Shown here one piece after another: positions 813 to 63,560 of a stretch of 64,000 bases of DNA. The position numbers were made by a program, and so were the translations under genes. The notes below the pieces were generated by a model that made no database searches, was not told where the DNA came from, and saw nothing but the letters and a program-made list of their open reading frames with translations. Source of the DNA: Octopus vulgaris (taxonomy: Eukaryota); assembly GCA_951406725.2 (NCBI GenBank), contig OX597818.1, positions 146,072,001 to 146,136,000 on the forward strand. The letters are read 5' to 3'. Every line of letters starts with the position of its first letter. Positions within the stretch are counted from its first letter, which is position 1.

Positions 813-855
<43 letters not shown>

Positions 856-858
<3 letters not shown>

Positions 859-975
859 CGTGACCACCGTGACCGACCAGGCTATCAGCTGTTGATACAC
901 ATCGCTGGTCACAATGCGCTTCACATTGTTTGAACCTTCAAATAACGCCACCCCGCTGGCTAAGCGAGCAGGCCA
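856..975 (-). mobile_element. 3' tail of tRNA-headed SINE family C, between (TA)n arrays
   Basis: Matches tails at 43561-43680 and 54752-54870 (GACCGACCAG...CGCCACCCCGCTGGCTAAGCGAGCAGGCC). Confidence 0.85.
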
Positions 976-988
976 ATATATATATATA

Positions 989-1042
<54 letters not shown>

Positions 1043-1074
1043 GGGTATGAGTATTTCATTTATATCTCGCGTAT

Positions 1075-1156
1075 TTGCCGCTGAAGATGTGTGGATGGGA
1101 AAATTTCTAATGGTGAATTAATTTCTGAATTACCCGAAATTGGACCAATACGGTAA
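1075..1156 (+). ncRNA. Hammerhead-like ribozyme, type I topology (variant A)
   Basis: TTGCCG-CTGAAGA(1081)...CCC-GAAA(1136)-TTGGACCAA-TA-CGGTAA; stem I TTGCCG/CGGTAA, near-palindromic stem III, AUA site; stem II irregular. Confidence 0.6.
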
Positions 1157-1505
1157 TAACGAATTTTTTAGAGATTTCTATGGTTTGTTTCGAGACGCAT
1201 AAATTTAATGTTTATCGACAATTTTTTGTTTCGGCGTATCTGGCATTAGAATTTTTCTTCTGCCCTTATCTTGTAAATTATGTATAAATTTTACCTTTAA
1301 AGGCATTTTTTGATATGCTGGCCATTGATAAAATTTTTTTCCCGAAAACAATTTTATCCTATATCAATTATATATATATATATATATATAATGTGAAATA
1401 GAAAGATGAATAATCTTGTTGTAGATTAATCAAAAGTTAACCGATACCTTAGTAGCAAAAATCACAGCCTCTGTTCTGTTTTTGTTTCTCTAACGGATTT
1501 CCTTT

Positions 1506-1594
1506 TTTCTTCCTGAAGAGAAAGACACAATATGGTCCCATTATTCAATCGGATTTTGGTAATTTGTGCCTTTCGAAACACGTGTAGAATGAAA
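1506..1594 (+). ncRNA. Type I hammerhead ribozyme (variant B) in PLE-type cassette 1392-1647
   Basis: TTTCTTC-CTGAAGA-GAAAGACACAA...TTGTGCCTTTC-GAAAC-ACGT-GTA-GAATGAAA; canonical core, 11-bp stem II with 1 mismatch, palindromic ACGT loop III, GUA site. Confidence 0.85.
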
Positions 1595-1642
1595 TAAAAC
1601 GATTTCTGTTCAATCTGCGTTCAGCTCCATTTCTTCAATTCA

Positions 1643-1702
<60 letters not shown>

Positions 1703-1705
<3 letters not shown>

Positions 1706-2991
1706 ATAGAAATGGTAAGACAACAAAAGAATGAAAGAGACCTCGATATTATGTAAATAGGGGAATTTATTTATAATATAATATGTGACAATTATTCGGT
1801 TGCCATAATAAAATTCCAAGTTTTAACCGCAGATACCAATGGACCAGCACAAGATCGTTTTAGGAAGGACATATCCAGATGATGAAAACTTTCAGTCTTA
1901 GCATAACTACAGATACCAATCTGACGGTTGGCAATTTCCTAGATGTATCCTTAGATTTAAATAAGAGTATTTACAAACCTTACAGGAAGCCCAACGATAG
2001 ACTTAGTTATATTAATGTCGGTTCCTGCCATCCGCGCATAGTGTTTAAAAATTTACTTAAAATCATTAACAAGAGAATTTCTAGCCTCTTCTCCGATAGG
2101 GATACTTTTAATAGCGCTGCCCCAGGATATAATAAAGCTCAAAAAGATAGTGAATTTAGCGAGGAAATAACCTATACACCTGTCAACCAGTGTAATTATA
2201 AAGAAACAGAAACGTAGGAATAGGAAAACCATCTGGTTCACACACCCCTACTTCCCCGAAGGTCACTTCAGGAGAGTAGGGGTGTGTAAGTCGGCATATG
2301 CATATATAGCGTGTACGTATTTTAGAGGTGTATTTGAATATAACTGTGCGCGTATGGGTATGTGCACGTGTGTGTGTGCGGTAGTACATGTGTGCACATC
2401 GTGCGTGTGTGTGTGTGCGCGTGTGTGCGGGTATGTATATATGTACGTGTATATGTACATGTGTATGGTTGCATGTATGTGTGGGTGTACACGCACGTGT
2501 TCCTCGTGAGTGTGAGCGAGCATACAGCATGTGCGTATTTGAATATAACTGTGCGCGTATGGGTATGTGCACGTGTGTGTGTGTGTGTGCGTGTGCGTGG
2601 ATTTGTATACGTGTACATGCCTGGATGCATATATATGTGTGCATCTATTTGGCGTATGTGTGTGTTTCATGCGAGTCTGAGTGAGCATATGCATGTAGGC
2701 ACATGTACGTGGGTGTGCGTGCGCACATGTGTATGTATGTCCATTTTTACTCCTTTACTTTTTACTTCCTCCCCTTCGGTTTTCGTCCCTTTTTTAACGG
2801 TCTTTCTAATAATAGCCCTTTTGTCTTAATAACGGTCAATTACATAGTAATTTCCCTTTGTTTAACGGTCATTTTCATAGCATATTTTAATTGCCTCGAT
2901 AACTGAAGAGATGCCGGAGCAGGTTTCCGCCCCAACATCTGAAACTCGGAGTTTTATTATGGCAACCGAATAATTGTCACATATTATATTA

Positions 2992-2995
<4 letters not shown>
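1703..2995 (+). mobile_element. 5'-truncated Penelope-like element with inverted pseudo-LTR piece, flanked by (TA)n
   Basis: ORF 1879-2217 NFLDVSLDL..YKPYRKPND..YINVGSCHP..KRISSL resembles PLE RT C-terminus/thumb; 1778-1825 is the reverse complement of 2941-2988; HHR at 2898-2958. Confidence 0.85.
2898..2958 (+). ncRNA. Hammerhead-like ribozyme (variant C) in PLE pseudo-LTR
   Basis: GATAA-CTGAAGA-GATG...CATC-T-GAAAC-TCGGA-GTT-TTATT; one extra nt before GAAA. Confidence 0.7.
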
Positions 2996-3067
<72 letters not shown>

Positions 3068-3068
<1 letters not shown>

Positions 3069-3508
3069 GTTCTTTTTCTTTTTGTTCTATTACTTGTTTC
3101 AGTTATCTGACTGCCTCCATGCTGGAACACCGCTTTTAGTCGAACAAATCGACCCCAGCATTTATTCTTTGTAAGCCTAGTACTTGTACTGTCGGTCGCT
3201 GTTGCCGAACCGCTAAGTTACAGGGATGTAAACACACAAGCATCGGTTGTCAAGCGATGGTGGGGGGACAAACATCAGACACACAAATAAACACACACCC
3301 ACATACACATACATATACACACACACATATATATATATTACGGGCTTCTTTCAGTTTCCGTCTACCAAATCCAATCACAAGGCTTTGGTCAGCCCGAGAC
3401 TGTAGTAGAATAGTAGAAGACACTAGCCCAAAGTGCCACACAGTGGGACTGAACCCGGAACAATGTGGTTAGTAAGCAAGATTCTTACAACACAGCTACT
3501 CCTGCGCC
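3068..3508 (-). mobile_element. tRNA-derived SINE family B
   Basis: Head GGCGCAGGAGTAGCTGTGTTGTAAG...GGTTCAGTCCC, internal microsatellite and tail shared with 49782-50212. Confidence 0.9.
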
Positions 3509-3515
3509 TATATAT

Positions 3516-3571
<56 letters not shown>

Positions 3572-3574
3572 TAT

Positions 3575-3618
<44 letters not shown>

Positions 3619-3695
3619 ATATATATATATATATAGCTAAACCACCGAAATCTAGAAGTTTTTTTTCATTCTCTCTCTGTTTATTTTCCCTTATT

Positions 3696-3733
3696 CCTTT
3701 CTGTTCAAGAGCGTAGGCTCGAAACGTAAAAGA
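3696..3733 (+). ncRNA. Minimal hammerhead-like motif (variant D) in cassette 3635-3757
   Basis: CTTT-CTGTTCAA-GAGC-GTAG-GCTC-GAAACGTA-AAAG; same family as 63456-63493. Confidence 0.55.
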
Positions 3734-3756
3734 CTTTTTCATTTTTCCCAAGCGTC

Positions 3757-3787
<31 letters not shown>

Positions 3788-3840
3788 AGATCATTAGCTC
3801 CTACACGCAATTTTTTCTCTCCTTGTTTTTTTCTGTGTAC

Positions 3841-3878
3841 CTTTCTGTAGAAGAGCGTAGGCTCGAAACGAAAAAGAC
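3841..3878 (+). ncRNA. Minimal hammerhead-like motif (variant D) in solo PLE pseudo-LTR 3785-3960
   Basis: CTTT-CTGTAGAA-GAGCGTAGGCTC-GAAACG; flanks match pseudo-LTR 63358-63560 in reverse complement; cleavage triplet mutated. Confidence 0.5.
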
Positions 3879-3965
3879 TTGTTCTATTTCTATTCCTGAG
3901 CGCCATACTAATACATTTGTTTGCTTGTACTCCACCTGCCTTCGTCTTTTGTTTATTGTTGTTGT

Positions 3966-4009
<44 letters not shown>

Positions 4010-4999
4010 CGTGTGTGTGTGTATATAGTATACACATATGTATGTATATATTCATAAATATTGTTAAAATAATATATACACACACATTTGCATACAAACA
4101 TATATACGTACACATACATACACATATTACACACACACATACACACACACACAAGCGCTCACTCAGACTTATGCTCTTAAATATTCAACCTTGCAAATAC
4201 ACTCGCACATACAAACACGTACACGTATTTTTTTGTGTGTGTATGTGTATGTTTGCGTATGTGTATGGATGTACGTATATATGTATGTATGTGTGTGTGT
4301 GTGTAAACCACGTGTCACAGCTAGTGAAAGGAAGGCATGTACTTATGTATATGGTAATGTTCACGTCATCTTTATTACAGCTTCGTTGCTAATCAACCAA
4401 ATTGTTTGTCTGTCACTTAATTCCCCAATCACATTCATTATAACAGCCACACGTTATCACAGTCATTTAATAATTAGTTCTATTTCCATTGAGACGTTTC
4501 GGTTATAAAACAACTCTAAAATATACGCTGATATATACAGAGAGGTCTCTTCGTATTCTAGTCTCTGTTAAGGGTTTACATTCGAAGCCGTTATAACATC
4601 CAGAACAAAGCAATGTGGTCCCTACATACACAACCATGGCATTGATAGATTAGCTTTGGATTCCCTAATCCGTGCCCACCCCTACCACCACCGAGTAATT
4701 ACCCAGTGTGTACATGATTTATGATGACATTGCTTTACACCATTCTTGGAGCATATTGTGGTGACAACGAGAAAAAAATAATGTCCTGCATAATCATTGA
4801 CCTACAACATGGTCATTGACCCAGAAACCGCAACCAAATCCCTCACATTTCAATCCTACGTCATTAAAATAATGGATAGGATAATGTAGTTCTGAATAAG
4901 ACGTAATATCTTTGATGGTAGTTCTACTCAACGAGTGCTGAGATGGGCTAAACAACAACAACAACAGCAACAACAACAACAACAGTTATTATTGCTCTG

Positions 5000-5175
5000 C
5001 TGAATGTCAGAATCGTTAAAACGCCGATCAAAATACTTTCGTCCTTTGCGTTTTGAGTTCAAATTTTCGAAGCCGATTTTTCCTTTCCTCCAAGGTGAAT
5101 ATTGGAGTCGATGTAATTGACTAGCCCCCCTCCTATCGAATTTTCAGTCTTTGTGTCTGTAGAAGAAAGGAATAT
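5000..5175 (+). mobile_element. Decayed SINE family A
   Basis: CAGAATCGTTA...GAGTTCAAAT...GTCGATGTAATTGAC motifs shared with 29089-29299. Confidence 0.7.
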
Positions 5176-5204
5176 TGGTTGGTTTTCAGAAAGCAACTTG
5201 ATGT

Positions 5205-6279
5205 AATAATCAGTTCTTCTCTTTGTTGATTTATCCAAGGCCTTTCACTCTGTACGCAGATAAGATGGGAGAAATCCTTTGGGCACATAGAATCCTCGAT
5301 GAAACAATAAAGGCGGTAATGATGCTGTATAAAACACCCGAGCGATGGTGCTGCCATCAGATGGAGATACTGACTTCTTCGATGTTCATGACGGAGTACT
5401 GCAGTGTGAGACATTAGCTCCTTACTTGTTCATCCTGTGTCTCGATTATGTATTGCGTACCTCAGTAGAGCAACACAATGATCTGGGTTACACTTTACAG
5501 AAGACTAGAAGCAGAAGATATCCTACTTGACTGACGGCGATTATGCTGATGACATAGCGCTCTTTGCAGACAACACAAAAGATGCTGAACGTTTACTCTT
5601 TCTCCTGGAAAATGCGCCGCTAACATAGGACTATATGTGAATGAAAAGAGGACAGAGTTTATCATCCTGAATACAACAGGTAAAATAATGACCATCAAAC
5701 AGAAGCCCTTGAAAAATGTCAACGAGTTTACTTACCTAGACAGCAATATCGTGTCCACTGAAAATGATATTAAATCTTGCGTTGCTAAGGCTTGGGCAGC
5801 TATAGACGGTCTTAGAACAATATGGAAGTCAACCCTACCAGATAATATGAAGAGACAGCTCTTCAGAGCAGTTGTCGAATCTGTGTTTATATATGGATTT
5901 CCGACTTGGACTCTCACCAAGAGACTCAGGTGCATGCTGGACGGTGCCTGCGCCAGATGTTACGTGCAGTGCTTAATATCTCTTGGAGGGAGCACCCAAC
6001 AAAACAACGGTTGTATGGGAATCTACCAACTTTCTCATCAACCATCCGAGAGCGGAAATTGAGGTTTGCTGGCCACTGCTAGAGAAGTAAAAAAGAACTT
6101 GTGAGTGATGTGTTGCTGTGGACACCAAATCATGGTATCGCAGTGACTAAGACATAGATACAACAGCTTTCAGAAGACGTTGGATGCCAAGTTGACGACC
6201 TAAAAATACTAATAGAAGATCGGGAGGGATGGAGAAAGGCAGTCAGGCTGGACAGGGCAATCAGCCTCTATAAAAAAAA
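5205..6279 (+). mobile_element. 5'-truncated RTE-clade LINE (RT pseudogene) with poly(A) and 10-bp TSD
   Basis: FVDLSKAF, GVLQCETLAPYLFILCLDYVL, DYADDIAL, EFTYLDSNI motifs with frameshifts; A-tail 6272-6281; TSD AACTTGATGT at 5195-5204 and 6280-6289. Confidence 0.9.
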
Positions 6280-6519
6280 AACTTGATGTGAATTTTGATT
6301 TTTCTTTACTCCTTTCAGTCAACGGAGGGCAACTATGCTGTGACATGGCCTTCAAGGATTTTAATCAGTTATATCGACGCCCCAGTACTTTATCTTGAAC
6401 TTATATTATCTACATCGCAGGGGAACAGATACGAAGTTGACTTGGGTGCAAAGGAACGGAACCCGGAAATCGGAATACGACATGGTGATCTCATATCAAG
6501 ATTAATAGCACGTGAGCTT

Positions 6520-6906
6520 GCAGGTGAGGTCCAGTTAGAATTTTCTTTAGGTTGAGTAGCCCATCCCGTTCAAAAAGTCCCTGGATAAGGTTGTTTAAGG
6601 ATGTTGAACGAAACTACCATGTTTCCAGGGGTGAATTATCCAATTTCCCAAGCATTCCTCTCAACACATGACTATGATGCTCCCCCACTACTCCTGCTCA
6701 TGATCAGAGATGCACATATCGTCAGCCACTAAGGGACATGCTCAACTGGTTAAGGTCAAACAACTGACAAACAAATCTGTGGTATTGAGCAGAATATTTG
6801 CTAAAGCCATCTTTTATACCAAGACAAAACAATGTACATGATAACACTTCCAATCAGTTAAGATGAGAAGCCATGAAAGCCACTGTCTGGTACTGCATCT
6901 GGGCAT
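6520..6906 (+). mobile_element. Retroelement 3' end or SINE ending in (ATT)n, unclassified
   Basis: Partial second copy at ~13960-14130 (CTACTCCTGCTCATGATCAGAGATG...GCAGAATATTTGCTA). Confidence 0.65.
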
Positions 6907-6934
6907 TTATTATTATTATTGTTGTTGTTGTTGT

Positions 6935-8048
6935 TATTTACTTTTAATCTGCATATTTGTTACAAACACTCACCCAGACACACCCAGCGTCCTTGGGTGA
7001 GTGAAGGATAAAAGATGTTACAGTATGACTGAAAGCTTGGGAAGGGAAAAAGGCAGGAGCAGTAGCGAAATATCTTCATGTAATACAACACATACATTTA
7101 AATAGATAGGGTTTTTCTAAGAATGTGGACAGTACTTGTCAGCACAATGTTTTGGATTTCTCGGAGACATGGTTCTCCTGGGATATTATCTAGATGTTTC
7201 TGACATCCCTTTCTTATACCAAAGGCACCCACAATAACAGGAACAGTTCTCATTTTAGAATGCCACATCTTTTGTATTTCAATTTCCAAGTCCTTATATT
7301 TACTTAATTTGTCAAATTCCTTTACAGATATATTTTTATCAGTGGGAACACTTACATCTATTAGTCTACGAGTATTTTCTTCTCTGTCTTTAATGATTAT
7401 GTCTGGTCGATTCGCCTGGATCGTTCTGTCGGTGTTGACTGGAAAATCCCAGAGGATAGTGACATGTTTACCTTCAACGACTGGCACAAAACAAGATGTT
7501 CAAGACAGATGAAAAAAAATTTACAGGGAGTTTGGCAAAAGCAAGATAGAAGTAAAGGAAATGGAATAATTCTGGAAGATATGGAGCAACAGAAAAGAAT
7601 ATAATGCTGAAACTCACTAGATAGAACGTAACATGATGAAATGAGATTGGATGAAGTTGAAGAGCAGAAATGTGAGGCAATAGGAGTAGAAAAGCTAAGA
7701 TGTGTTCTTAGAAAGTCTCACAAACGGAAAACCCCAGGACTGGACTGGATCCTTAACTTCTAGCTAAATTGTTTGACAGAAGTACACCAAAATGTTGCTT
7801 CATCTCGAACTGATATAATCTCGAACCCAGAGCAAATACCTGCCTGGCTAACCGACTGAACAACATGCCTTCTACCAAAATCTGAAGACACGAAAAATCC
7901 AAAGAACTACCGCCTTCTCAACGCCATCTACAAGATCCTCACATCGATACTAACTGAAAGGATATACACTTTCCTGGAACAGAACTCTATCCTTCCACAA
8001 GCTCAAAAAAGGTTGTGAAAGGAATTCTTATGGATTCAAAACACAGTT

Positions 8049-8180: not shown

Positions 8181-10454
8181 TACTCCTGCACCACCATTGT
8201 TCCTGGTAGCCTTTTTTCTTTTCACAGGCAACGCTTTTCACAGTCAAAATCACAACAGTTATTGAAACAAAGTTAAAAATGTATTAAAGATTTTTTTCTC
8301 AAAAATAGAAAAGAAAGTTTTATGAATTGATGGAAAGTAAAGTATATAAAATGCCAATAAGGGATCTACAAACGAAGAAGAACATTCCAGCATAGCAGTA
8401 GTTAAAGAATTAAATGATGCCAGTCTGAAAGCGACACACCAAATATCAATCAAACAGCTTGAGGCAAAAAGGGTTCTGGTCACGTTCACATTCTCGAGAA
8501 ATACCTTGAGCACACTGTCAGTTTCCTTGTTGCCTTGATGCTGGATAAGCAAGTTTTAAATGCTCCAAATGACCTTAAATTTTCTCAAATATGGCGATTT
8601 GTCCACTCACTGTTCACTCTAAACAACACCCAGGAGCACATTTTTCCCTCTGTGTAAATCACTGCTATAATGTACACTTGATGTGAATGGAATTGTAATT
8701 GAAGACTAGGAAACTAGCCAAATAGTATGGAGCAAGTCTACAAGAATTTTTGAAGTATTATTTATTGAAAGAAATAATGAAATACGGTATACATCAAATT
8801 ACTGAAGGCTATACATTAAATATATTAAATTACAGCGTTTTTGGTGATTGCTTTTAGAGACAATTTGAAACACTTAAAACTTGTGCAATATTATGAAGAA
8901 AGCAGAATTATTTAGATAGGAAATCTATTTCATCGTCTCATTGATAAATAGAGAAAAACAATTCTTATGTTTCGATATAAGTTGGTTGGGTGGAGAGAGC
9001 TTGACGACTTTGTTGGCACATTCCTTATCGCTGTTGGGAAGATGACCATATTCAGAAAATCGGCGACGAAGGGGTAATTTAAAAAAGTGGAATTTCGGAT
9101 AGATAAGTTTTCAGTTTTGATTATTATTTATAGCATGTCGTTTTTTTTAAATAACAGAGATATGATGATTTACAGACGTTATAAAACATTATTCGCTTCG
9201 CAGTTTGACCATTTGGTCTGTGAAGTGACGTTGTTCAGGGCAGTAATAGCTAGTTTTGAAATTGTTTCTGTTGAATACTGTGTGAAATTTGTGTGCGGCT
9301 GCGAAGTATTTATCTAATAACGACAACAATGTTTTAGTTAGGTTATTTTAATGCTATTTAGTTGGAAAGAACCAAATTATATTCCTTTTCTGTTTTTTAT
9401 TTTAAATGAGCCCTCCTGGTAAACTGCTTTCCTATTAAAGCTGCTTTTAGATGCAGCAGAATTGTTGTCGGTAAGCAAGATTATTTCCTTATCCCTAGAG
9501 GTTTCGTATAATAGAGTTTTATTGCCAACCTCACTGTGTGTATGTGTGAATGCACTACATCACGTTTTTTGTAGGGGGTAATTTCAAGTGTCAGGTACTC
9601 TTTTTGTAAACATAAAATTTAACCACTCAGACAGAACTAAACTGACCTAGCAATTTTGCATGACTGTATAGATTCTAGTAACGTGAATTAATTAATAATG
9701 CATTAAACATACAATTTAGCCTGACTGTGGTAAAACAATGAGAAAAGCAGTAGGTAAAAACTTTTGCTTAGACAATGATGTTTGATCTAGCTACAGTCAA
9801 ACTGTAATGAATATGTTGAAGGAGATCTGACTGCTGATTTTAGCTGGTCAAACAACCGTATTGAACCTCTTGCTCCGAGTTGCATCGTTGACTTGTTACA
9901 AAACCGTCATCATCTGCTCCAATAAAGACTCTTATTTTGTCTCATCGAAAGGCGTCTATGTGGGCTTATCGAAATTCCATCGATAGCTCATATAGAAATT
10001 TTGTCTCTCTATATAATGGAAACTCACTAATTCAGATTACCTATGATCTAAAAAATGAGGACTCCACATTGAAGATTTCAAGATTTTGGGACTTCATTTA
10101 ATGCACATCAGGCTCGTCGAATTGCAGTCCGTATTCTTTCTAGTTAGACACTTAACGAAACATGCAGGAATTTTACTGAGTATTTTTACAACTTGGTAGG
10201 CAAAGTTGGTTGAGTACTCTTATCACATACACAATGCATTACCATTCTCAGAATATGAACCGCCACAAAGCACACAGTTGGTATTTCAGAATTATTAGGT
10301 CACAAACATGATTAAGAAGTTGACTTCTTAATCATGGATTTGCCTGTTGTGTCCTTATCAGTCATGATGGGCTTCGTATATTTTACCCCACTGTCACTTT
10401 GATGGCATGCACTTCTCTCTCACCCAATAATAATAATAATGATAATGATAATAA

Positions 10455-22321: not shown

Positions 22322-23108
<787 letters not shown>

Positions 23109-26049: not shown

Positions 26050-28490
26050 CCCTTGGTCTACCAGAGAAAATGCATGTCACTAATTACCAACTGGGTCCAA
26101 TGGACCTAATATTTTTCTTTTAATTAAATTTTATTCAAGCTACCACTATTTCTTTGCTACATTATATATGCTATCAGGTGAATGAAGAATTACAGCTTAC
26201 AGAATATATTATAAATTAAGAAAATGACAAAAATACAGAATTACAGCTCTTCATGACAATGAATGCAGACAACATTGGAATATTCTTGGCAAATATGGAT
26301 ATTACAATTCTTACATGTAGTTCGAGTTTTCCTGTCTTCTTTTTTTGGACTACACAAAGAACATCTTCCTTTTTGCTTTGGCTGAGGAATCTCAAATGAA
26401 GCTGAAGATCGTCTTCTTTTCTTGTTTGGTTGAGAAATGTTAGCGGAACTAGAAGATTGTTTGTCATGTTCTTGTTTAGCATCAACTCCAGCAAATTCCT
26501 TTCTTAACTGAATTAGGCTCCGTCTTCTTTTATCCTTGAAACTCTGCAAGTGAAGCTGTTTAACAACAATGAAAACATTCACTGCATTTACATCAATCAT
26601 GTTGTAGAATATAACCCTAGGCCATCTTCGAGTCATTCTTTTGCAAGCGTATACCCGTACCATCTTATCTAGCGTATCTACCTTCTTTTCTTTTCTTGTA
26701 ACATGCAATAACTCCAGGTTTCTTTTCAGTACCTTTTGAATCAATTGAAGGCTGAGAGTACATTGTACTCATAAGTGTGACGACATAATTTTCCTTGGGA
26801 CAATAGGACAGGATCATAGAATCTTTTTGAAATTCAAATATTGTGCTGTTGATTTCTCTTTCTTTTCCATTTGTAAAAGCACTTAGAAGTTCAACTCTGT
26901 TCTTTCTAATTGTTGCAGCTTTCGAGCTAATCCTAGACTTGTAAACAAATTATCACAAATTATATTGCAACCAGTATTTTCAAGTTCTTTTACTAGGTTT
27001 TGAACAACCTCTGAACCTTGATTTGTTTCTCCCCACTTTTACTGGGTCTTTTTCAGTGTAAATTTGCATTTTACAGGCATAAGATGTTTCACTATCACAT
27101 ATTGCTCAAATTTTAATTCCATATTTCCCTGGTTTGGAAGGAATAAATATCTGGAATGGGCAGCGCCCTCTGAATGAAACTTATTGTTCATCAACTGTCA
27201 TCCATGAACTTGGAACATATCCATCTTGCAAATTCTGATTCGACATTTCAAATACTTCCTTTATGGGCTCCACTTTATCACCACTTCTCTTTTTTCTTCT
27301 TGCACTAGCATCATCAAAGCACAATACTTGTAAAATCTGTTGAAATCGTCCCCGGATCATAATTTTGTTGAATATTGGGCGGCCATCTTCTTAACTCCAC
27401 AACTGTGTGACATTTTCACATTTAGATGTATAAACACCTATAAGAATAGTCAGTCCAATAAATTTCTTTAGTTCAGAGTGATCAATTTCCTTCCATTTAT
27501 CTCTGTAAACAACCTGGCCTTCAACATTTGTCCATTTACGAATTACTTCAAGAAGATTCTGGCGCATAAAGATAGTAAAACATGTTTCAATGTTATCGCA
27601 AGACCTTTTATCAAAAGGGAATGGTCCACATTCTTGGCACACAATACTGCAAGATGAAGTTCTTACTGCTGCTTGAGTAAGATGATTAAAATGTCATACT
27701 TCTTGTTTGTATCTAGAAGCATATCGCTCATTCATAACTGGGTGGCTTGCAGATAATTGTTTTTGAGTATCTTCATCATCTGATGGCGTAGAACCTAAAC
27801 TGTCCAGCACACAATCACTTTCACCATCATCTTCAGAGCAATAGAAGGAATCACTACTATTTTCTTCCCATTCTTCCTCTAATTCCAATAAGCTTTTCGA
27901 TATTTGATCTTCACTCAGATTTTTGTGTTTAGGGATATTGGAAAGCACAACTGAACAATATGGAACTTGATAGCAGACTAAAGGCAGATATTGATCTCTC
28001 ACATATCTATACTCTCCTGAAAGATGATGCACTATATTGTAAGAATTGTGTCATCACATAGAAATATTGCATCACCCTATAACCTAGCAGATTGAAGGTG
28101 ATGCAATACCACACAAATTTACAAGAATATTTTCATAATTTTTCCTATTTTATCTAAAATTCAGCAAGTAAATTGAATATAATTTTATCTATTTTATATC
28201 CGATAATTATTTAGGAAAATAATATTTTATATTGCTTTTATTGTTTAGAATGGCAAGAGTATTGTCTGAATTTATTTCGAGGGTCCAATGGACCCATACG
28301 GTAGTTAATGTATAAAGTGAAATTTTGTAGCTTTTATAAACATACGGAAAATTTTCCATTTGACAAATAAAAGAGAATAAAAAAAAATACGAGTCACGAG
28401 AAATCAGCAGAATCAAATAATATAAACAGTAGGTAAAAGCAACTGAAAAAAACTGAAATGGGTCTATTGGTCCCATTGGCAGACAGAAGG
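26050..28490 (-). mobile_element. Full-length decayed piggyBac (PGBD4-like) transposon
   Basis: TTAA at 26046-26049 and 28491-28494; imperfect TIRs CCCTTGGTCTACCA / CCTTCTGTCTGCCA; subterminal GGGTCCAATGGACC-type repeats at ~26093, 28281, 28460. Confidence 0.95.
26241..27960 (-). pseudogene. piggyBac transposase with frameshifts and stops
   Basis: MTVDEQ..FRGRCPFQIFIPSKPGKYGIK, NIICDNLFT, VDTLDKM (DDD triad), RRWP, C-terminal CSLC..CKNCNIHIC..C..C domain. Confidence 0.93.
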
Positions 28491-31168: not shown

Positions 31169-31480
31169 ATACAAAATATCACATGTACAAAGATTATTTG
31201 AGAACGCTCACGTTCTAGATTAGTCGAATTAAACTCGACTCAGTTTTTTAGTGCTTTCAAATCCAAATTAAGAAATGTTGAGCTGACGAAAGAAATGTCG
31301 AGTTTAATTCGACTAATCTAGAAACGTGAGCGTTCTCAAATAATCTTTGTACATGTGATATTTTGTATTTTCCCTCCATATCTACGTGAATTATTTTTGA
31401 GTAAACACTATCTGGGAGACTCTTCTTAAAGTAGTGGAAATGGCTAAAAAAATTTCAGTGTGGCAAATAAATTATACACA

Positions 31481-31547
<67 letters not shown>

Positions 31548-32151
31548 GTATCAATGATTAAGGGTAAAATCAATTAATTATTAATTAATTTCACCAAGTA
31601 GTGTTCAGTATGTAAAGGACCATTGAAGGCGTATTCAATATATTACGTCATATAATTAGGGCTCAATAAAATAATTTACTTTGCCACATACTGAAATTTT
31701 AAAATAGCAGCCAAAAAGTTTTTTAGCCATTTCCACTACTTTAGAAGAGTCTCCCAGGTAGTGTTTACTCAAAAATAATTCAAGTAGATATGGAGGGAAA
31801 ATACAAAATATCACATGTACAAAGATTATTTGAGAACGCTCACGTTTCTAGATTAGTCGAATTAAACTCGATCAGTTTTTAGTGCTTTCAAATCCAAATT
31901 AAGAAATGTTGAGTGACGAAAGAAATGTCGAGTTTAATTCGACTAATCTAGAAACGTGAGCGTTCTCAAATAATCTTTGTACATGTGATATTTTGTATTT
32001 TCCCTCCATATCTACGTGAATTATTTTTAGTACACTATCTGGGAGACTCTTCTTAAAGTAGTGGAAATGGCTAAAAACTTTTTGGCTGCTATTTCTAAAA
32101 ATTTCAGTATGTGGCAAAGTAAATTATTTTACTGAGCCCTAATTATATAAC

Positions 32152-41444: not shown

Positions 41445-43560
41445 ACACCTCGTCTGCTAGAGATGAATTTTTCTTTGGATATTTAATATCGTACATAGAG
41501 GGGACACAATAAGGCAATGAGGTGGAAGCTGAGTCTGGCTACGTTAAGTAAACTGTTTATTTCCCGGCCATAATCTAGTTGACATTTTTTGGTTTTTTTA
41601 AATGCTTTTATTTTTGGATTGGATATTGTGTTTCTTCTGCTTTATATGCAAACTAACAAATTTAATCCAAACGCCCTGTATATAGCGCCTGCACAAAATT
41701 CACAGCTCACTGGATATTGATAAAGATAGCAGAACTATTCGCAAATAATACTTAGGACCCTCAAAGATACCTCAACAGAACGAAACAGCTATTGTTGTAC
41801 AAACAAAACATGAAATCCACAGTAGATTACGCTAATCTTGCCTGTGTTTCTAACGGTTATAATCTCACCGATGCAGGAAGGCCTGCACAGACTCTCCTCC
41901 GAACCAAACCAGTAAAACAAACAAGAATTAACTCCAACGAATACAAAATAGTATCCATGCATTACAGCTGTTTACACATATGCTGCCTAGACACCGAATC
42001 AAAGATAATAAACCAGAAAGACTACATCAACAGAATTTTTGTTTTACTTGTGGTACTTATTAGACTGTGACTGGCCATGCTGGGGCAACACCTTGAAGAA
42101 TTTTTAGATAGCTGTATAGAAATTTTGTTTTAAGCTTGATCAAAACCACTTCTGTGGTTTAGTCAAGTGTATCAACCCCAGAATTATTTTAGATGATTTT
42201 CAAACAGTGCTGAAGTTAAGCCTAGAAGGTCTTTCGAATGCTAGAAGTAACAGCCAGGTCTCTTGAAATTATTTTATAACTCCACTTCTGTTATATTTTT
42301 TGGCTATTCTTGGTTTTTTTATATTTTCTAAAAATCATTTTACTTGTTTCAGTCACTGGACTGCGGCCATGCTGGGGCACCGCCTTGAAGCATCAGTTTT
42401 AGGTGATTTTCAACCAGCACATAAAGTTAAGCCTAGAAGGTCTTTCCACATGTTAGAAATAACAAACAAACCTTACAAACATTTTTAAAAATAATTTCAC
42501 GTAAACAAAGACAGAAATCGCGATTGTAAAAAAAATAAATTATTTCCAAAATTCCAATTTTTAAGTAAATACAATATATTCAATAAAAAAACGGTGCCAA
42601 AACATCTATAACAATGGTAATTTCCGTGTGTTTCAGTTTTTTTTCCTCGTTTTTAGAATAATTTTGAAGTTTGAAAATGTAAATAAATGAACCTTAATAA
42701 CAGCAATAATTGAATAATAGAACACCAGACTCTTTACTACTCAATGTACATATTGTCGGAATTTTAACAAAAGGGAAAGCATATTTACTTCAAGAAATGT
42801 GTAGAAACGTAAAAACGATAAGAAGTACATTTGAATGATTATATATACACACATAAAATGAAAGTAAATATTACACACGTCTCTGACATGTTTTTTTTTT
42901 CACAAAAACCAGAATTTGTCCTTTTTATGGAGAAATACCCATTTCCCTATTTAGGCAAACGATATGAGATACGTTTGACTGACTAGCCTTCTGTTAGACC
43001 TTCAACAGCCGGAGAAAGTTCAAACGGTCAACTTATTCTCATTAATCTGTAAGTGCTGGGAGAAGAAAACAAAAGACTTTAGATATATATTTTTCTGCGA
43101 CCAAAAATTCTTCAAGCTGGTGCTCCAACATGGCGGCAGTCCAATGACTGAAACAAGTAAAAAGATTTTAAAATAAAAAAAAAAAAAGCTGAGAGGGTTA
43201 TTAAAAAAATTTAAAGGCTGTTATTTCTAGCATGTGGAGATACCTTCTAGGCTTAACTTCATGCGCTGGTTGAAAATCATTTAAAGCAAATTCTGTGGTC
43301 GATACATTCGACTAAAAATTCTTCAAGGTGGTGCCCCAGCATGGCCGCAGTCTAATGACTGTAACAAGTAAAAGATGAGAAAAACGAAAGAAAAAAATCG
43401 AAAAATTTAACCGTGGAGCCTTTGTCCACTTTCACATTTTAACTATGGTGATTTTGGCCGAGGGGCTTTTGTCCGTGGGTTTTTTTCCTACACTCATATA
43501 TATATATATATAACGGGAAGCTTTATGAAAATAGACAAAAGACGAAGGCAGGTGGGAAAT

Positions 43561-44941: not shown

Positions 44942-45585
44942 GGATCTTTACCTTTTGACCTACAGATTTAAAAAATAATTTTTTGTAACTAAACACTTTC
45001 AAATTTCGGACACTGGTAGAATGTGTCATATAAAATATCTTTTACTCTTAGCGTTTTTGAGAAAAACTTGTATTTACGAAGTTATTTCACGTTAAAGTTG
45101 TCGTATTTCGGTAATTTCAACCAATCAACGACGTGTATTCAGCTGACTAAAATTACTGCCGTTGTTTGTCAACAACACCTATCGGCGGTGTAGTTTTCGT
45201 TTGTCACTGTTATTTATGACATCGTTCGTGCGTTTGTACTGGTTTTAAGGTTTTAGGGTTAGGGTTGGGGTTTTAGGGTTACGGTTAAGGTTTTAGGGTT
45301 AGGGTTGTCATAAATAATAGTGACAAACGAAAATTACACAACCGGAAGTTCTTGTTGACAAACAACAGCAGTAATTTTATTCAGCTGAATACACGTCATT
45401 GATTGGTTGAAATTACCGAAATACGAGAACTTTAACGTGAAATAACTTCGTAAATATAAGTTTTTCTCAAAAATGCTGACAGTAAAACATGTTTTATATG
45501 ACACATTCTACCAGTGTTCGAAGTTTGAAAGTGTTTAGTAACAAAAAATTATTTTTTAAATCTGTCTGTCAAAAGGTGAAGATAC
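44942..45585. mobile_element. Palindromic MITE with ~280-bp TIRs, 8-bp TSD and TTAGGG-rich spacer
   Basis: Arms ~44942-45221 and ~45306-45585; TSD GTTAAACA at 44934-44941 and 45586-45593; superfamily not determined. Confidence 0.92.
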
Positions 45586-50212: not shown

Positions 50213-50390
50213 TATAAACAGCAGTTTCACCAAAAAGGAGAATTATAATTGTCACTAAATGCGACTAGTGTGTTAGAAAACATTTACTAGAAATAAAAGC
50301 TAAAACACTCTAATGCTGTAGTCAACGCGCATGACTGAGAACAAACCCTTACAGGGACCATAATTGTCTGAAAAATGCCGCTCGAGAATT

Positions 50391-50439
50391 CTTAATACCG
50401 ACGTCAGTTTCGGCAATTTCCGTTGCCTCATCAGTTAAG
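50391..50439 (-). ncRNA. Canonical type I hammerhead ribozyme (variant G), antisense to the HERO ORF
   Basis: Minus CTTAA-CTGATGA-GGCAAC-GGAA-ATTGCC-GAAA-CTG-ACGT-CGG-TA-TTAAG; all core nt canonical, three stems, palindromic ACGT loop III, GUA site. Confidence 0.9.
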
Positions 50440-50503
50440 CCTGCCCGATTGTTCGGCTTTTCCTGATGTTTTCGTCATCCAAATTATTGGATGATTTAGC
50501 GAT

Positions 50504-53500: not shown

Positions 53501-53619
53501 GGAAAATGGAGACGTTATTTAAAAGAAGGTTTGCATTTTCGAACTCAGAACTGAGAAAAGTAATAAGGAGAGTACAGGAGGCAGTCGACAAAGCTAGCTT
53601 CTATATATGGCTGAAATGA
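50504..53619 (+). pseudogene. HERO polyprotein (ZnF-RT-CCHC-RLE) with frameshifts and stops
   Basis: CCGKVFSSYIGLRIHQ; LDLASAYGSVPH; IAAGCTISVILF; AFMDDVT; CRCEEKATLKHVLSNC..TWPHNQVL; RPDLILW..LELTVPWEEN. Confidence 0.92.
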
Positions 53620-53884
53620 GAAGACCAAAAATGGCTTGAAAGCCGTAACATGCCGACTGGGAAATAGCATCGCTAGGTGGGGCTGGCTGACACTTAAACA
53701 GCATCGCTGATTGACTGGTAGGCCAAGGTAGTGATCTCATTCATAGCACACCCTCCTCCTGGTTCGAAGGCTTGTACCACCAAACAGCTAATTGGCTCTG
53801 GCTGCTGGAACTGAAACTAACACGACACTGTTAGAAGGCAGGTTTAGAGAGGACGCGGGCCAAAACTACGCACCCTTCCCCTCC

Positions 53885-53985: not shown

Positions 53986-54330
53986 GCCCGCTGACATTCG
54001 TTGAAGCTGCATCGAATAAACCAAAGAACAAAAGAAAAACGGAGAAAGTAAAAACGCACTCAACACCAGAGCTGAAGACACCTCCAAAAGTGGGAGCTCC
54101 GCCACGTTGGAAACGGTAGAAGTGTAGGGCCTGAAACCGGACGAGATTCCCCCCGATGATGTCTTTAGCCATTGGATCCTATAAAGGAACTGTTGAGGTA
54201 GCGAACCACGAAAGGTGGTTGGAATTCCTATGTTTTCGTCATCCAAAATTATTGGACGATTTTCCGATACGCTGCGTAAAATACAAAATTAATATAAGCA
54301 GCAGTTTGCAATGTTTCACACGCACGCACG

Positions 54331-61169: not shown

Positions 61170-63560
61170 ATAGTGAGAATTTACGAAAAAGCAAAAAATG
61201 AAGACAGGTGTGTAAATAATAAATAGATGTATTAGTTTAACGCTCGGAAAGTAAGAAAGTATTTTTATGTTTCCAGCCTACGCTCTTTGACAGAAAGGGA
61301 CACAGAAATAAACAAGGAGAGAAAATAAAAAAGGTTTAGTGGCTGACGATCTATCATGGCGAATGCCGGACAGAGGAAAGTTAGGGAGAAGTGGAGATAA
61401 TAAAGTAGTGGTGATCCCAAAACGAAAGTGCGCGTGCGTTTGTATGTGAGAGTGTGTATGTGCGTGTGGAAGGGGGCTGGTGTCCTTCACGTGTGCATGT
61501 GTAGGTGTGTGGATGATGGAGTGGGTGCTGGGAAGTGGTCGGTGCTAGTGTGTACATGGTGGTGTGATGTGGTGTGGAGTGGTGTCGTATGGTGGTGTGT
61601 GGTGTGGTGGTGTGGTGTTGTAGTGTGTGGAGTGGTGGTGTTAGGGTGGGGGAATCGAGAGTGGGGGAAGCAAGGGTGGAGTGTAAGGGATGGGGTGGGT
61701 TGGAATGTGTAGGTGTGGGGTAACGAGAGAGGGGTGATGATGAAGGGAGAAGGTGGGTAGGAGTGAAGAGGGAAGTAGGTGTTAGAGCAAGACAGGAGAG
61801 GTGGGCGGGAGGAAGTAGGTGTGAGAGAGGAGGAGAGTTAGATGAAGAGGGAGGAGAGTTGAGCCCATGTGACCCATAGGAGCGAAGAGAGAATATTAAT
61901 CCCTGTTCACAGCGAAGAAGGGAGTCCAGATGGCCCCTGTGTAAGGACAATCCAAACACAAAGAGGTATTGTAAAGAATGACCGGAAGAGCAGAGCGGAA
62001 ATGATGGAGGAATTGGGAGTAGGGGCTAGAGATCTTGGTGTATTTAGGCTGGGTGGCGGAGAAGTTGAGGTTTAAGTGTGAGTCTGTGTGTTTGTAGTGG
62101 ATGGAGGTGGTGAGAGTGGAGTGATGAATGCTGACCGAAATGTCGAGAAAGGCGACTGAAGTGTCGGAAATAGTGCAGAAGTGGAGGGCAGGATAGAAAG
62201 ATTCAGGAATGGGACTTGTGAAACTTGAGAATTTTTGGACCTCAACGTAGCTAATGAACAGGTTCGCATAGTTGGGGCCCATTCTCGTTGAGAAGCAGTT
62301 AAATGAGAGGACAAGTTCAACCAGACGAAAGAATGTGGATGTATCAGGTTGGGGGTTGGGTCGAAGATCAACGAAATGTTGGAATGCACGCAGCCCCTTG
62401 TGGTGAGGAATCACCGTGTATAGGCTCTTGATGTCAAAAGTGAAGAGAAGTTTAGAAGGGCCAAGAGGGAAGGAGAAAGAGTTGAACAAACGAAAAGCAT
62501 GGCTTGTGTGATGAATGTGAGAGGGGAAGGAAGCCACTAGGGGACAAGTACATGGTCAAAATATCTGGAGATGAGTTCGGTGGGGAAGTTGCAGGTGGAA
62601 ACGATGGGGCGGCCAGGGTTGTTAGGCTTGTGGATTTGGGGGACGAAGTAAATTGTGGGGATGCGAGGGGTGCGGACAATGAGGTTAGAGGTGGAGAGGG
62701 AGACGGGAGGAGGAGATGAGGTCATGGATAGTGGAGTACACAGTTTGTTGGTAGCTGGGCGTGGGATTAGAGGGCAGAGGGTAGTAGAGGTGTCTTGAAA
62801 TTGGCGGAGAGCTTCCGCCTTGTAGAGGTCTGCGTGCCACAACACCATGGCTCCACCCTTGTCGGTCAGTTTTATGATGATGTCCGTGCGGCGTCGGAGA
62901 CATCGAAGGGCCGAGAGTTCGGCTGGGGAGATGTTCAGATGTCGGAAACGCTTGGAAAAGTCAAACCAGTCCACAGCGCGCAAACAGATCAACTGCTTGG
63001 AACTGGCCAGGAGCTGGCGTCCACTGGGATGGTCGGTGGCCCAAGTCAGTGAAGCAGTCCTTCTCATTAGATACAGGTGGAGTGTCGCAGAAAAGCACAC
63101 ACAACGTAACGCGGCGCACAAAGCACGAGTCCGAAATTCATTGCTGGATGGAGCGAGGGGGATGAAGCGCAGACCCCTACTGAGAGGAGAGCGCTCTACC
63201 CCAGAGAGGGGGAGATCTGGAGGGATGGTAACAATAGACTGAAGTGGAGAAGGGGTGGAAGGCTGGGAGGGAGGGAATGAGGGGTATGTGGGTAGGGCTT
63301 GGGAGGGACGGGGTTGGTGAGGGTGGGAGAGCGTATATATATATATATATATATATAACGGGAAGCTTTATGAAAATAAACAAAAGACGAAGGCAGGTGG
63401 AAAACAAACGAACAATTGTATTAGTATGGCGCTCAGGAAATATAAATAAAACAAGTCTTTAACGTTTCGAGCCTACGCTCTTCAACAGAAAGATACACAG
63501 AGAGAGAGAAAAACACAGAAAGAAGGAGAGAAAAAAATGCGTGCAGTAGCTAACGAATCA
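61170..63560 (-). mobile_element. Penelope-like element, decayed and internally deleted, with pseudo-LTRs at both ends
   Basis: IIIKLTDKGG, PQIHKPNNPGRPIVS, FDIKSLYTVIP, MGPNYANLF, FLDISV..YKHTD RT motifs; EQGLIFSLRSYGSHGLN resembles the GIY-YIG C-terminus; pseudo-LTRs ~61170-61340 and 63358-63560, the latter separated from the body by (TA)n. Confidence 0.92.
63456..63493 (-). ncRNA. Minimal hammerhead-like motif (variant D, best copy)
   Basis: Minus TCTTT-CTGTTGA-A-GAGC-GTAG-GCTC-GAAACGTT-AAAGA; stem III reduced to palindrome AACGTT; decayed copy at 61262-61299. Confidence 0.7.

What the first reader, a model, noticed from the sequence alone, without database searches (positions are those of the whole stretch)
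976..3970. (TA)n nest holding five hammerhead cassettes of four unrelated types in 3 kb
Seen: the non-SINE islands between (TA)n arrays (1041-1368, 1392-1647, 1703-2995, 3635-3757, 3785-3960) each contain a CUG-N-N-(G/C)A...GAAA..UH-type hammerhead motif, with different stem sequences between types. Only one island has RT coding sequence. Window-wide I count about 13 motifs of about 8 types. Established: PLE pseudo-LTRs carry minimal HHRs with short palindromic stem III thought to act as dimers. Inference: several PLE lineages, or non-coding retrozyme-like derivatives, repeatedly target (TA)n, making microsatellites into clusters of self-cleaving RNA sites in this genome.
Basis: partly seen in the sequence, partly recalled or inferred. 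Interest (0 to 1): 0.8.

Follow-up and report, generated by a model that had tools for sequence, protein, structure and literature searches.

The report
Stacked Penelope retroelement ends with hammerheads
The five ribozyme-shaped motifs in this TA-repeat stretch are real, but they are leftover tail ends of a known kind of jumping gene (Penelope-like elements) that likely piled up here because these elements prefer TA repeats, and most of the five copies are damaged and predicted not to cut.

Summary
Observation confirmed: five type I hammerhead motifs of four sequence types lie on the + strand at 1081, 1513, 2903, 3701 and 3845; per-island shuffles reach their scores in 0-4 of 400. All four types are multi-copy repeats. 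Type C ends a 5'-truncated Hydra-clade Penelope-like element (PLE) with its RT thumb, an inverted tail and a one-sided extension; it is a sister of published Hydra-1_Obim, and 26 of 27 Hydra families are listed as (TA)n-targeting (PMC8557442). Type D flanks a decayed Neptune-like RT at 61.2-63.6 kb of this window. Types A and B have Hydra-like hammerheads, parents not found. No tandem retrozyme organisation. Only B has an undamaged core; A has a 9-nt insertion, both D copies carry a second core defect, C a weakened stem II, so this is a pile of mostly disabled PLE ends, not a cluster of working ribozymes. The odd point is A6U in 4 of 4 type D copies. TA enrichment outside the nest is weak and SINEs share it. 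The scan noted the same reading, and the A6U family, before on other DNA. Cleavage untested.

The parts
813..855 (.). (TA)n array at the left edge of the nest
856..975 (-). End fragment of a repeat without hammerhead (tRNA-type SINE by recall), 2 more copies in the window, all beside (TA)n
976..1039 (.). (TA)n array
1041..1368 (+). Island 1: 5'-truncated 3' end of repeat family A; ends in a hairpin (1327-1358)
1075..1156 (+). Hammerhead type A: stem I 6 bp, box 1081-1087, 9-nt insertion 1088-1096 before stem II, GAAA 1136-1139, palindromic stem III 1139-1149, predicted cut after 1150; likely disabled in this copy
   Evidence: one contig lacks the insertion (table 5c)
1391..1466 (.). Piece of a different repeat joined to family B; by analogy an inverted tail of another element (inferred)
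   Evidence: second B copy and contigs part at 1467
1467..1643 (+). Island 2: 5'-truncated 3' end of repeat family B, ending on (TA)n; 94% like 22709-22885 on the - strand
1510..1589 (+). Hammerhead type B: box 1513-1519, stem II 5+5 bp, GAAA 1575-1578, 8-nt palindrome 1578-1585, predicted cut after 1586; the only undamaged copy in the nest
1646..1703 (.). (TA)29
1704..1823 (-). Inverted copy of the type C tail (1774-1823, 96% to 2942-2991) plus a ~70-bp extension (1704-1772) absent from the direct end
   Evidence: contigs continue from 1770 into the tail in all 4 runs
1864..2250 (+). Decayed C-terminal part (thumb) of a Hydra-clade PLE reverse transcriptase; endonuclease part not present
2270..2740 (+). 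GT-rich spacer; parts (2308-2393, 2652-2737) recur in other genomic copies
2898..2958 (+). Hammerhead type C: stem I 5 bp, box 2903-2909, GAAA 2941-2944, stem III 2944-2952 with 1-nt centre, predicted cut after U2953; stem II weakened by copy-specific changes at 2934 and 2940
2994..3064 (.). (TA)35
3073..3510 (.). Two abundant repeats without hammerhead (SINEs by recall), 6 or more copies each in the window
3636..3757 (+). Island 4: type D end, cut short at its 3' side; minimal hammerhead box 3701-3707 with A6U and G8C, extra base before stem II, ACGU palindrome, predicted site after 3728
3785..3960 (+). Island 5: type D end; minimal hammerhead box 3845-3851 with A6U, and A in place of U16.1 at 3871
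61170..63560 (-). Outside the finding: type D end (63556-63358), (TA)12, decayed Neptune-like RT (63241-61995, no endonuclease), type D end (61355-61186): RT-bearing parent of type D

Best explanation
The nest is a pile of independent, truncated 3' ends (pseudo-LTR or 3' UTR pieces) of at least four Penelope-like element families, likely inserted one after another into the same TA microsatellite, each carrying its family's type I hammerhead, most now damaged. Shown: the five motifs; multi-copy families; Hydra-type RT upstream of type C with an inverted tail and one-sided extension; Neptune-like RT flanked by type D elsewhere in the window; lesions in four of five copies. Inferred from published PLE biology: the element's GIY-YIG endonuclease nicks (TA)n, target-primed reverse transcription starts at the RNA 3' end and stops early, so the hammerhead near that end is the part most often left; each insertion leaves TA on both sides, and SINE tails add more, so the site stays a target. 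In an intact parent RNA the hammerhead would cut as a dimer through its palindromic stem III. That A and B belong to Hydra-type parents is inferred from architecture only.
For: Island 3 matches 79 RT proteins (best 54%, E 5e-17); of the 12 longest, 12 have DKT, 10 RWK, 10 CxCX5C, the Hydra signatures of PMC8557442 section 11. By eye 60 of 89 residues equal Hydra-1_Obim (supplement). File S1 lists (TA)n for 26 of 27 Hydra families; File S2 lists 26 Hydra hammerhead rows, 2 with the same stem III as type C, 2 with the type B stem III plus a central base, 10 with U17. Inverted tail 1774-1823 and extension match the published PLE insertion form. Type D brackets an RT whose 16 longest of 36 homologs all have DKG and 13 the CX2-5CxxC linker. 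1928-3188 contigs per DNA run lie on islands 1-2 and 4851-8012 on island 3. B ends run on into TA-like letters in 7, 5, 4 and 3 contigs of the four runs; strand-switch joints occur in A. 0 of 5 common variants of B fall in core or stems II-III. Stem III palindromes fold no hairpin but give self-duplexes of -8.9, -10.3, -9.7 kcal/mol. Islands 4 and 5 are 80% alike, no closer than to copies 58 kb away (74-86%). Two of 4 metagenome loci near or within Hydra-like ORFs carry sense-strand hammerheads (L002, L003).
Against: No RT-bearing parent was found for A or B. Both RT-bearing copies lack the endonuclease, so autonomy of these very families is not shown. Outside the nest only 2 of 7 motifs lie within 200 bp of (TA)6+ (p 0.24) and 4 of 7 within 500 bp (p 0.06), while 9 of 15 non-hammerhead repeat copies lie within 200 bp: TA proximity is not special to hammerhead elements and may partly be made by tails. 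No compensatory change was seen within any family. Clades were assigned by motifs, no tree. Rfam gives no hammerhead match.
Confidence: 0.85

Rival explanations
1. Types A and B (perhaps D) are non-autonomous, protein-free elements (retrozyme-like or SINE-like) that spread through their own hammerhead-cut, circular RNA with a borrowed PLE reverse transcriptase.
For: No RT found for A or B; very many contigs on their 3' ends; for C the tail bins are 5 to over 100 times deeper than the RT bins; both RT copies lack the endonuclease. A preprint argues animal retrozymes derive from PLE pLTRs (10.64898/2026.07.22.740005).
Against: No head-to-tail tandem of units with hammerheads, the defining layout (PMC7229834). 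No copy examined in the window begins at the predicted cut (inverted C copy starts at 2942, 11 bases before the cut; the D tail at 43530-43555 lies well past it). Deep 3' ends are what 5' truncation gives anyway.
Confidence: 0.12
2. The nest works as a unit: a read-through RNA is cut at several sites, the co-oriented hammerheads being kept or useful to the host.
For: All five motifs are on the + strand (p 0.06). Islands 4 and 5 could complement: the core of 5 with the intact cut site of 4 gives a type III-like junction with 3-bp stem III.
Against: Four of five copies are damaged; the complementing fold lies 11.8 kcal/mol above the minimum-energy fold; B and C have no same-type partner nearby; no conservation of the nest as a whole was seen (no contig spans either laid stretch).
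Confidence: 0.03
3. The motifs are chance matches to a loose pattern in AT-rich DNA.
For: The strictest scan found 1 of 5; the common descriptor was written after seeing the motifs; island 4 is reached by 4 of 400 shuffles; no Rfam hit.
Against: 0 of 400 shuffles for four islands; second copies keep the motif; family-majority letters strengthen stem II of C and one A contig lacks the insertion; match to tabulated Hydra hammerheads.
Confidence: 0.01

Closest known systems
Hydra clade of Penelope-like elements, incl. Hydra-1_Obim of Octopus bimaculoides (Craig et al. 2021, PMC8557442; passages, section 11, supplement parts 2 and 52 read)
   Same: RT thumb about two-thirds identical to Hydra-1_Obim by eye; hammerhead near the 3' end with CUGAAGA-G box, palindromic stem III with 1-nt centre and U17; (TA)n target; inverted 5' copy.
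   Different: Type C hammerhead and tail are not those of Hydra-1_Obim (three diagnostic short words of A-C not found in the supplement, one found in Hydra-2_Amil); GT-rich spacer; no endonuclease in this copy; extension about 70 bp, not 30-40.
[quoted passage not shown]
   Same: Type D: extra base between 9 and 10.1, G10.1-C11.1, palindromic 15.2-16.2 with no loop, short stem I, mostly solo copies, many families per genome; found around a Neptune-like RT.
   Different: A6U in 4 of 4 copies, not mentioned in the parts read (which report U3-A8); stem II 4 bp rather than 7-8.
Animal non-LTR retrozymes (Cervera and de la Pena 2020, PMC7229834, passages; Li, Clavereau and Pollet preprint 10.64898/2026.07.22.740005, first fifth read)
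   Same: Short, protein-free, type I hammerhead-bearing, high-copy sequences.
   Different: No tandem 150-450 bp units; no copy starting at the cut; two types tied to RT genes.
Type-SGC permuted hammerheads (Eckert et al. 2023, PMC10085705; passages read)
   Same: Considered for a second motif on the - strand of island 1 (stem, GAAA, stem, UC).
   Different: No CUGAnGA block up- or downstream in this copy or among common variants; all five accepted motifs are ordinary type I order.

Membership tests
Hydra-clade PLE (island 3) | PLE-type RT | tested here: met
   tblastn P0029 residues 371-470 on 1876-2175, 45%, E 6e-21; 79 homologs
Hydra-clade PLE (island 3) | RWK, DKT and CxCX5C motifs | tested here: inconclusive
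   These parts are missing from the truncated copy; in the 12 longest homologs 10, 12 and 10 have them
Hydra-clade PLE (island 3) | C-terminal GIY-YIG endonuclease without CCHH | tested here: inconclusive
   No endonuclease sequence in this copy; depth dips at 2265-2307, as at a deletion joint; family state unknown
Hydra-clade PLE (island 3) | Canonical hammerhead near the 3' end, sense strand | tested here: met
   2898-2958, stem III identical to 2 of 26 tabulated rows
Hydra-clade PLE (island 3) | Insertion in (TA)n; inverted 5' copy and one-sided tail | tested here: met
   (TA)29 and (TA)35 flank; inverted 1774-1823; extension 1704-1772
Hydra-clade PLE (island 3) | Placement in the RT tree | not tested
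   No tree built; closeness to Hydra-1_Obim counted by eye
Hydra-clade PLE (islands 1, 2) | Link to a Hydra RT | tested here: inconclusive
   No RT next to A or B in the window; contigs too short; no assembly held
Neptune-like PLE (type D) | DKG-type RT flanked by hammerhead-bearing repeats on the sense strand | tested here: met
Neptune-like PLE (type D) | CX2-5CxxC linker and GIY-YIG endonuclease | tested here: inconclusive
   Absent from the window copy (alignment ends at residue 647 of 904); 13 of 16 long homologs have the linker, which Nematis shares
Type I hammerhead ribozyme | CUGAnGA and GAAA boxes, stems I-III, UH site | tested here: met
   Met for B and C; A has a 9-nt insertion after the box
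Type I hammerhead ribozyme (type D copies) | Conserved core letters A6, G8, U16.1 | tested here: not met
   U at 6 in 4 of 4 copies; G8C at 3701 copy; U16.1A at 3845 copy
Type I hammerhead ribozyme | Site-specific self-cleavage | not testable with these tools
   Needs transcription assays; runs laid were contigs, which show no RNA ends
Type I hammerhead ribozyme | Compensatory changes within a family | tested here: inconclusive
   None among 2 B and 4 D copies; variant tables give single positions only and 102 of 142 rows were cut
Animal non-LTR retrozyme | Two or more head-to-tail 150-450 bp units each with a complete hammerhead | tested here: not met
   TRF finds none; islands 4-5 are 80% alike, split by (TA)14, both defective
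Animal non-LTR retrozyme | Abundant circular RNA | not testable with these tools
   No raw RNA reads offered

The most novel reading that the evidence does not exclude
Type D is a Neptune-type PLE family whose minimal hammerhead has replaced the near-invariant core base A6 by U family-wide while keeping stems, G8 and a free position 7, and still cuts as a dimer: a natural, slow, very abundant core variant. In this nest two neighbouring broken copies could even rebuild one active site in cis (core of island 5, cut site of island 4), so that TA nests would pool complementing ribozyme halves.
Probability: 0.15. Interest if true: 0.55.

Novelty: new member of a known kind. Interest (0 to 1): 0.27.

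Why it matters
It adds undescribed octopus-type Hydra and Neptune-like PLE families and shows how TA microsatellites become sinks for PLE ends, which matters for repeat annotation and for not mistaking such motifs for host regulatory ribozymes. The role of PLE hammerheads is still open (PMC8557442); type B (intact, 8-nt palindrome) and the A6U family give simple constructs for testing dimer cleavage and core tolerance.

Tried and rejected
No assembly is held for this window, so no genome-wide scan, enrichment test or family reconstruction. Rfam: no hammerhead among the 150 listed of 190 window matches or the 55 matches in 1040-3965; all are microsatellite noise. Pfam: nothing on the island 3 frames, P0029 or the two Neptune-like frames. 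A 20-base type D pattern found 0 stretches in metagenome contigs; P0029 found 4 loci, none with TA runs of 5 or more units. Sequencing runs: no RNA holder listed; one run guessed to be RNA (X9) has contigs on islands 1-2 but shows neither strand nor ends. Second motif on the - strand of island 1 (1205-1285): rejected, no CUGAnGA block. Motif at 53034: rejected, it lies in a retroelement ORF and is explained by codons; 34124 and 22136 treated as chance. My first guess of Nematis for island 3 (recalled) was dropped. A split of type D into two subfamilies is not supported by identities. Complementation of islands 4 and 5: possible on paper, 11.8 kcal/mol above the minimum. Sequence look-ups in earlier scan notes gave nothing. 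Luense et al. 2017 on PLE hammerhead variants is not held; I saw only its title and a review's summary, and it may describe A6 variants. Paper searches for A6U or CUGUAGA-type cores gave no listing that looked relevant by title (none opened).
Full report
Observation. The region 813-3977 is a run of TA arrays with islands between them. A strict scan caught only the 3701 copy; allowing one bulge and one core change caught 3 in the nest against 0.03 in 30 shuffles, and 8 in the window against 0.97. One descriptor wide enough for all five, written after I had seen them, is reached by 0, 0, 0, 4 and 0 of 400 shuffles of each island. The four types do not align with each other. Rfam has no model that finds them. 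Window-wide I count 13 motifs of 7 types plus one unverified candidate. Hammerhead position numbers follow the usual convention (own knowledge).

All four types are repeats. B has a 94% copy at 22709-22885 and D three more copies plus a 26-base tail match. Contigs of public runs laid at 80% likeness number 1928-3188 per DNA-type run on islands 1-2 (three runs, plus 188 in a run guessed to be RNA) and 4851-8012 on island 3 (four runs). The tool warns that depth is no copy number; I take only that these are abundant families whose 3' ends are the deepest parts.

Island 3 is one Penelope-like insertion. Its frame 1864-2214 matches 79 proteins, best 54%. Of the 12 homologs of 580 residues or more, 12 have DKT, 10 RWK and 10 CxCX5C, which PMC8557442 (section 11) gives as marks of the Hydra clade. 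That paper's supplement lists Hydra-1_Obim from Octopus bimaculoides; translating its DNA by eye, 60 of 89 residues equal the window's, so the host is likely an octopus and the family a sister of it. File S1 gives (TA)n for 26 of 27 Hydra families, and File S2 tabulates 26 Hydra hammerhead rows: all with A6, 10 with U at the cut as in C, 2 with exactly C's stem III, 2 with B's stem III plus one central base. The last 50 bases of the island are repeated inverted at 1774-1823 (96%), and 37, 35, 32 and 19 contigs of the four runs show that 1706-1770 normally continues into that tail: an inverted 5' copy with an extension on one side only, the published PLE insertion form, though the extension is about 70 bases rather than 30-40. 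No endonuclease sequence follows the RT; a GT-rich spacer does, parts of which recur in other copies, with a dip in cover at 2265-2307. About 85% of depth reads C at 2940 and G at 2934 in run X1, which strengthens stem II: this copy has decayed. Only 40 of 142 variant rows were shown, so I cannot call the other positions invariant.

Type D has a parent in the window. Copies at 63556-63358 and 61355-61186 bracket a decayed RT on the same strand, the first followed by (TA)12. Its 36 homologs include 16 of 680 residues or more, all with DKG and 13 with the CX2-5CxxC linker, and its letters resemble the Neptune rows of the supplement alignment; I call it Neptune-like, without a tree. It too lacks the endonuclease (domain at 808-859 of P0080). 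Type D fits the minimal PLE hammerhead of PMC4209133: extra base after A9, G10.1-C11.1, palindromic ACGU without loop. All 4 copies have U at position 6, while position 7 takes three states. A natural A6C variant cut at under 0.1 per minute (PMC3088659, passages). Islands 4 and 5 are 80% alike, within the 74-86% range of all pairs, so they are separate insertions, and each has a second defect (G8C; U16.1A).

Types A and B. B is intact; none of its 5 common variants falls in the core or stems II-III, and its 3' end runs into TA-like letters in 7, 5, 4 and 3 contigs. Island 2 is a join: before 1467 the second copy and the contigs differ, and 1391-1466 continues elsewhere as another repeat. A has perfect stems I and III but a 9-base insertion after the box; one contig shows the box followed directly by the G run of stem II, and three strand-switch joints suggest inverted copies. 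No RT was found for either; their long stem II and 8-11 base palindromes look like Hydra hammerheads, which is inference.

Mechanism. From PMC8557442, PMC4209133 and the review PMC6765202 (passages): the element's endonuclease nicks (TA)n, reverse transcription starts at the RNA's 3' end and often stops early, so the hammerhead near that end is the part most often left. Each insertion leaves TA on both sides. The stem III palindromes of A, B and C fold no hairpin alone but give self-duplexes of -8.9, -10.3 and -9.7 kcal/mol, as expected for cutting as dimers in the parent RNA. In the nest only B is undamaged and its nearest partner is 21 kb away on the other strand, so the nest is predicted to cut little or not at all. 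Islands 4 and 5 could pair the core of 5 with the cut site of 4, but that fold lies 11.8 kcal/mol above the minimum.

Against and open. Outside the nest, 2 of 7 motifs lie within 200 bases of (TA)6+ (13.5% of the window; p 0.24) and 4 of 7 within 500 (p 0.06), while 9 of 15 copies of three repeats without hammerheads (SINEs by recall) lie within 200. So TA proximity is not special to these elements, and some arrays may be tails. No compensatory change within a family was seen. All five motifs share a strand (p 0.06). Retrozyme tandems (PMC7229834 passages; preprint 10.64898/2026.07.22.740005, first part) are absent, and no copy examined begins at the cut, but non-autonomous status of A and B is not excluded. 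No assembly and no raw RNA reads were available.

Novelty. PLE hammerheads, their diversity within a genome, solo copies, dimer design and (TA)n preference are all in print, with an octopus example. The specific families were not found in the Craig supplement and searches for octopus PLE hammerheads listed only that paper; a cephalopod repeat survey has no 'hammerhead' (PMC8967140, term search). Searches for A6U cores listed nothing relevant by title, but Luense et al. 2017 could not be read and the supplement of PMC4209133 was not opened; either may hold it. Earlier notes of this scan reached the same reading, and the A6U family, on other DNA; they are unchecked and I use them as leads only. 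Verdict: real, well explained, new members of a known kind; interest 0.27.

Noticed in passing
window 61170-63560 (-) and 1864-2991 (+): Both RT-bearing PLE copies (Neptune-like and Hydra) lack the endonuclease and run from the RT straight into a long strand-biased spacer (C-rich; GT-rich) before the hammerhead; could be endonuclease-less derivative families or separate deletions.
   Followed up: partly
window 1391-1467: Junction of a type B end with a piece of a different abundant repeat, probably an inverted foreign tail; may record template switching between families.
   Followed up: partly
window 31172-31365 and 31804-31995: Further hammerhead type (box 31283) in an inverted-tail structure, duplicated locally at 97.5%.
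   Followed up: partly
window 45040-45487: Inverted pair (91%) of hammerheads with the U3-A8 core, separated by degenerate TTAGGG repeats rather than TA.
   Followed up: partly
window 50385-50442 (-), 50495-53620 (+), 54040-54273: Canonical-looking hammerhead antisense and just upstream of a decayed non-LTR element with RT and restriction-like endonuclease motifs (HERO-like by recall); 50460-50508 is repeated at 54225-54273 and an unverified CUGAAGA...GAAA motif lies near 54071.
   Followed up: no
window 43496-43560: A ~45-base type D tail sits between (TA)8 and the end of a SINE-like repeat: PLE tail inserted in a SINE's TA tail.
   Followed up: partly
window 9240-9398 (-): Second, isolated Hydra-type PLE coding fragment (49% to P0029 residues 481-535), no hammerhead found nearby.
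   Followed up: partly
window 1205-1285 (-): Stem, GAAA, stem-loop, UC arrangement like half a hammerhead, whose stem is stronger in most genomic copies, but with no CUGAnGA block.
   Followed up: yes
window 26219-28050 (-): Decayed frames that look like a piggyBac-type transposase (recalled motifs, not tested).
   Followed up: no
L002 2415 (+), L004 2350 (-), L003 2840 (+): Hammerheads beside Hydra-like ORFs in metagenome contigs; L002 and L004 share one type with a 9-10 bp stem II.
   Followed up: partly
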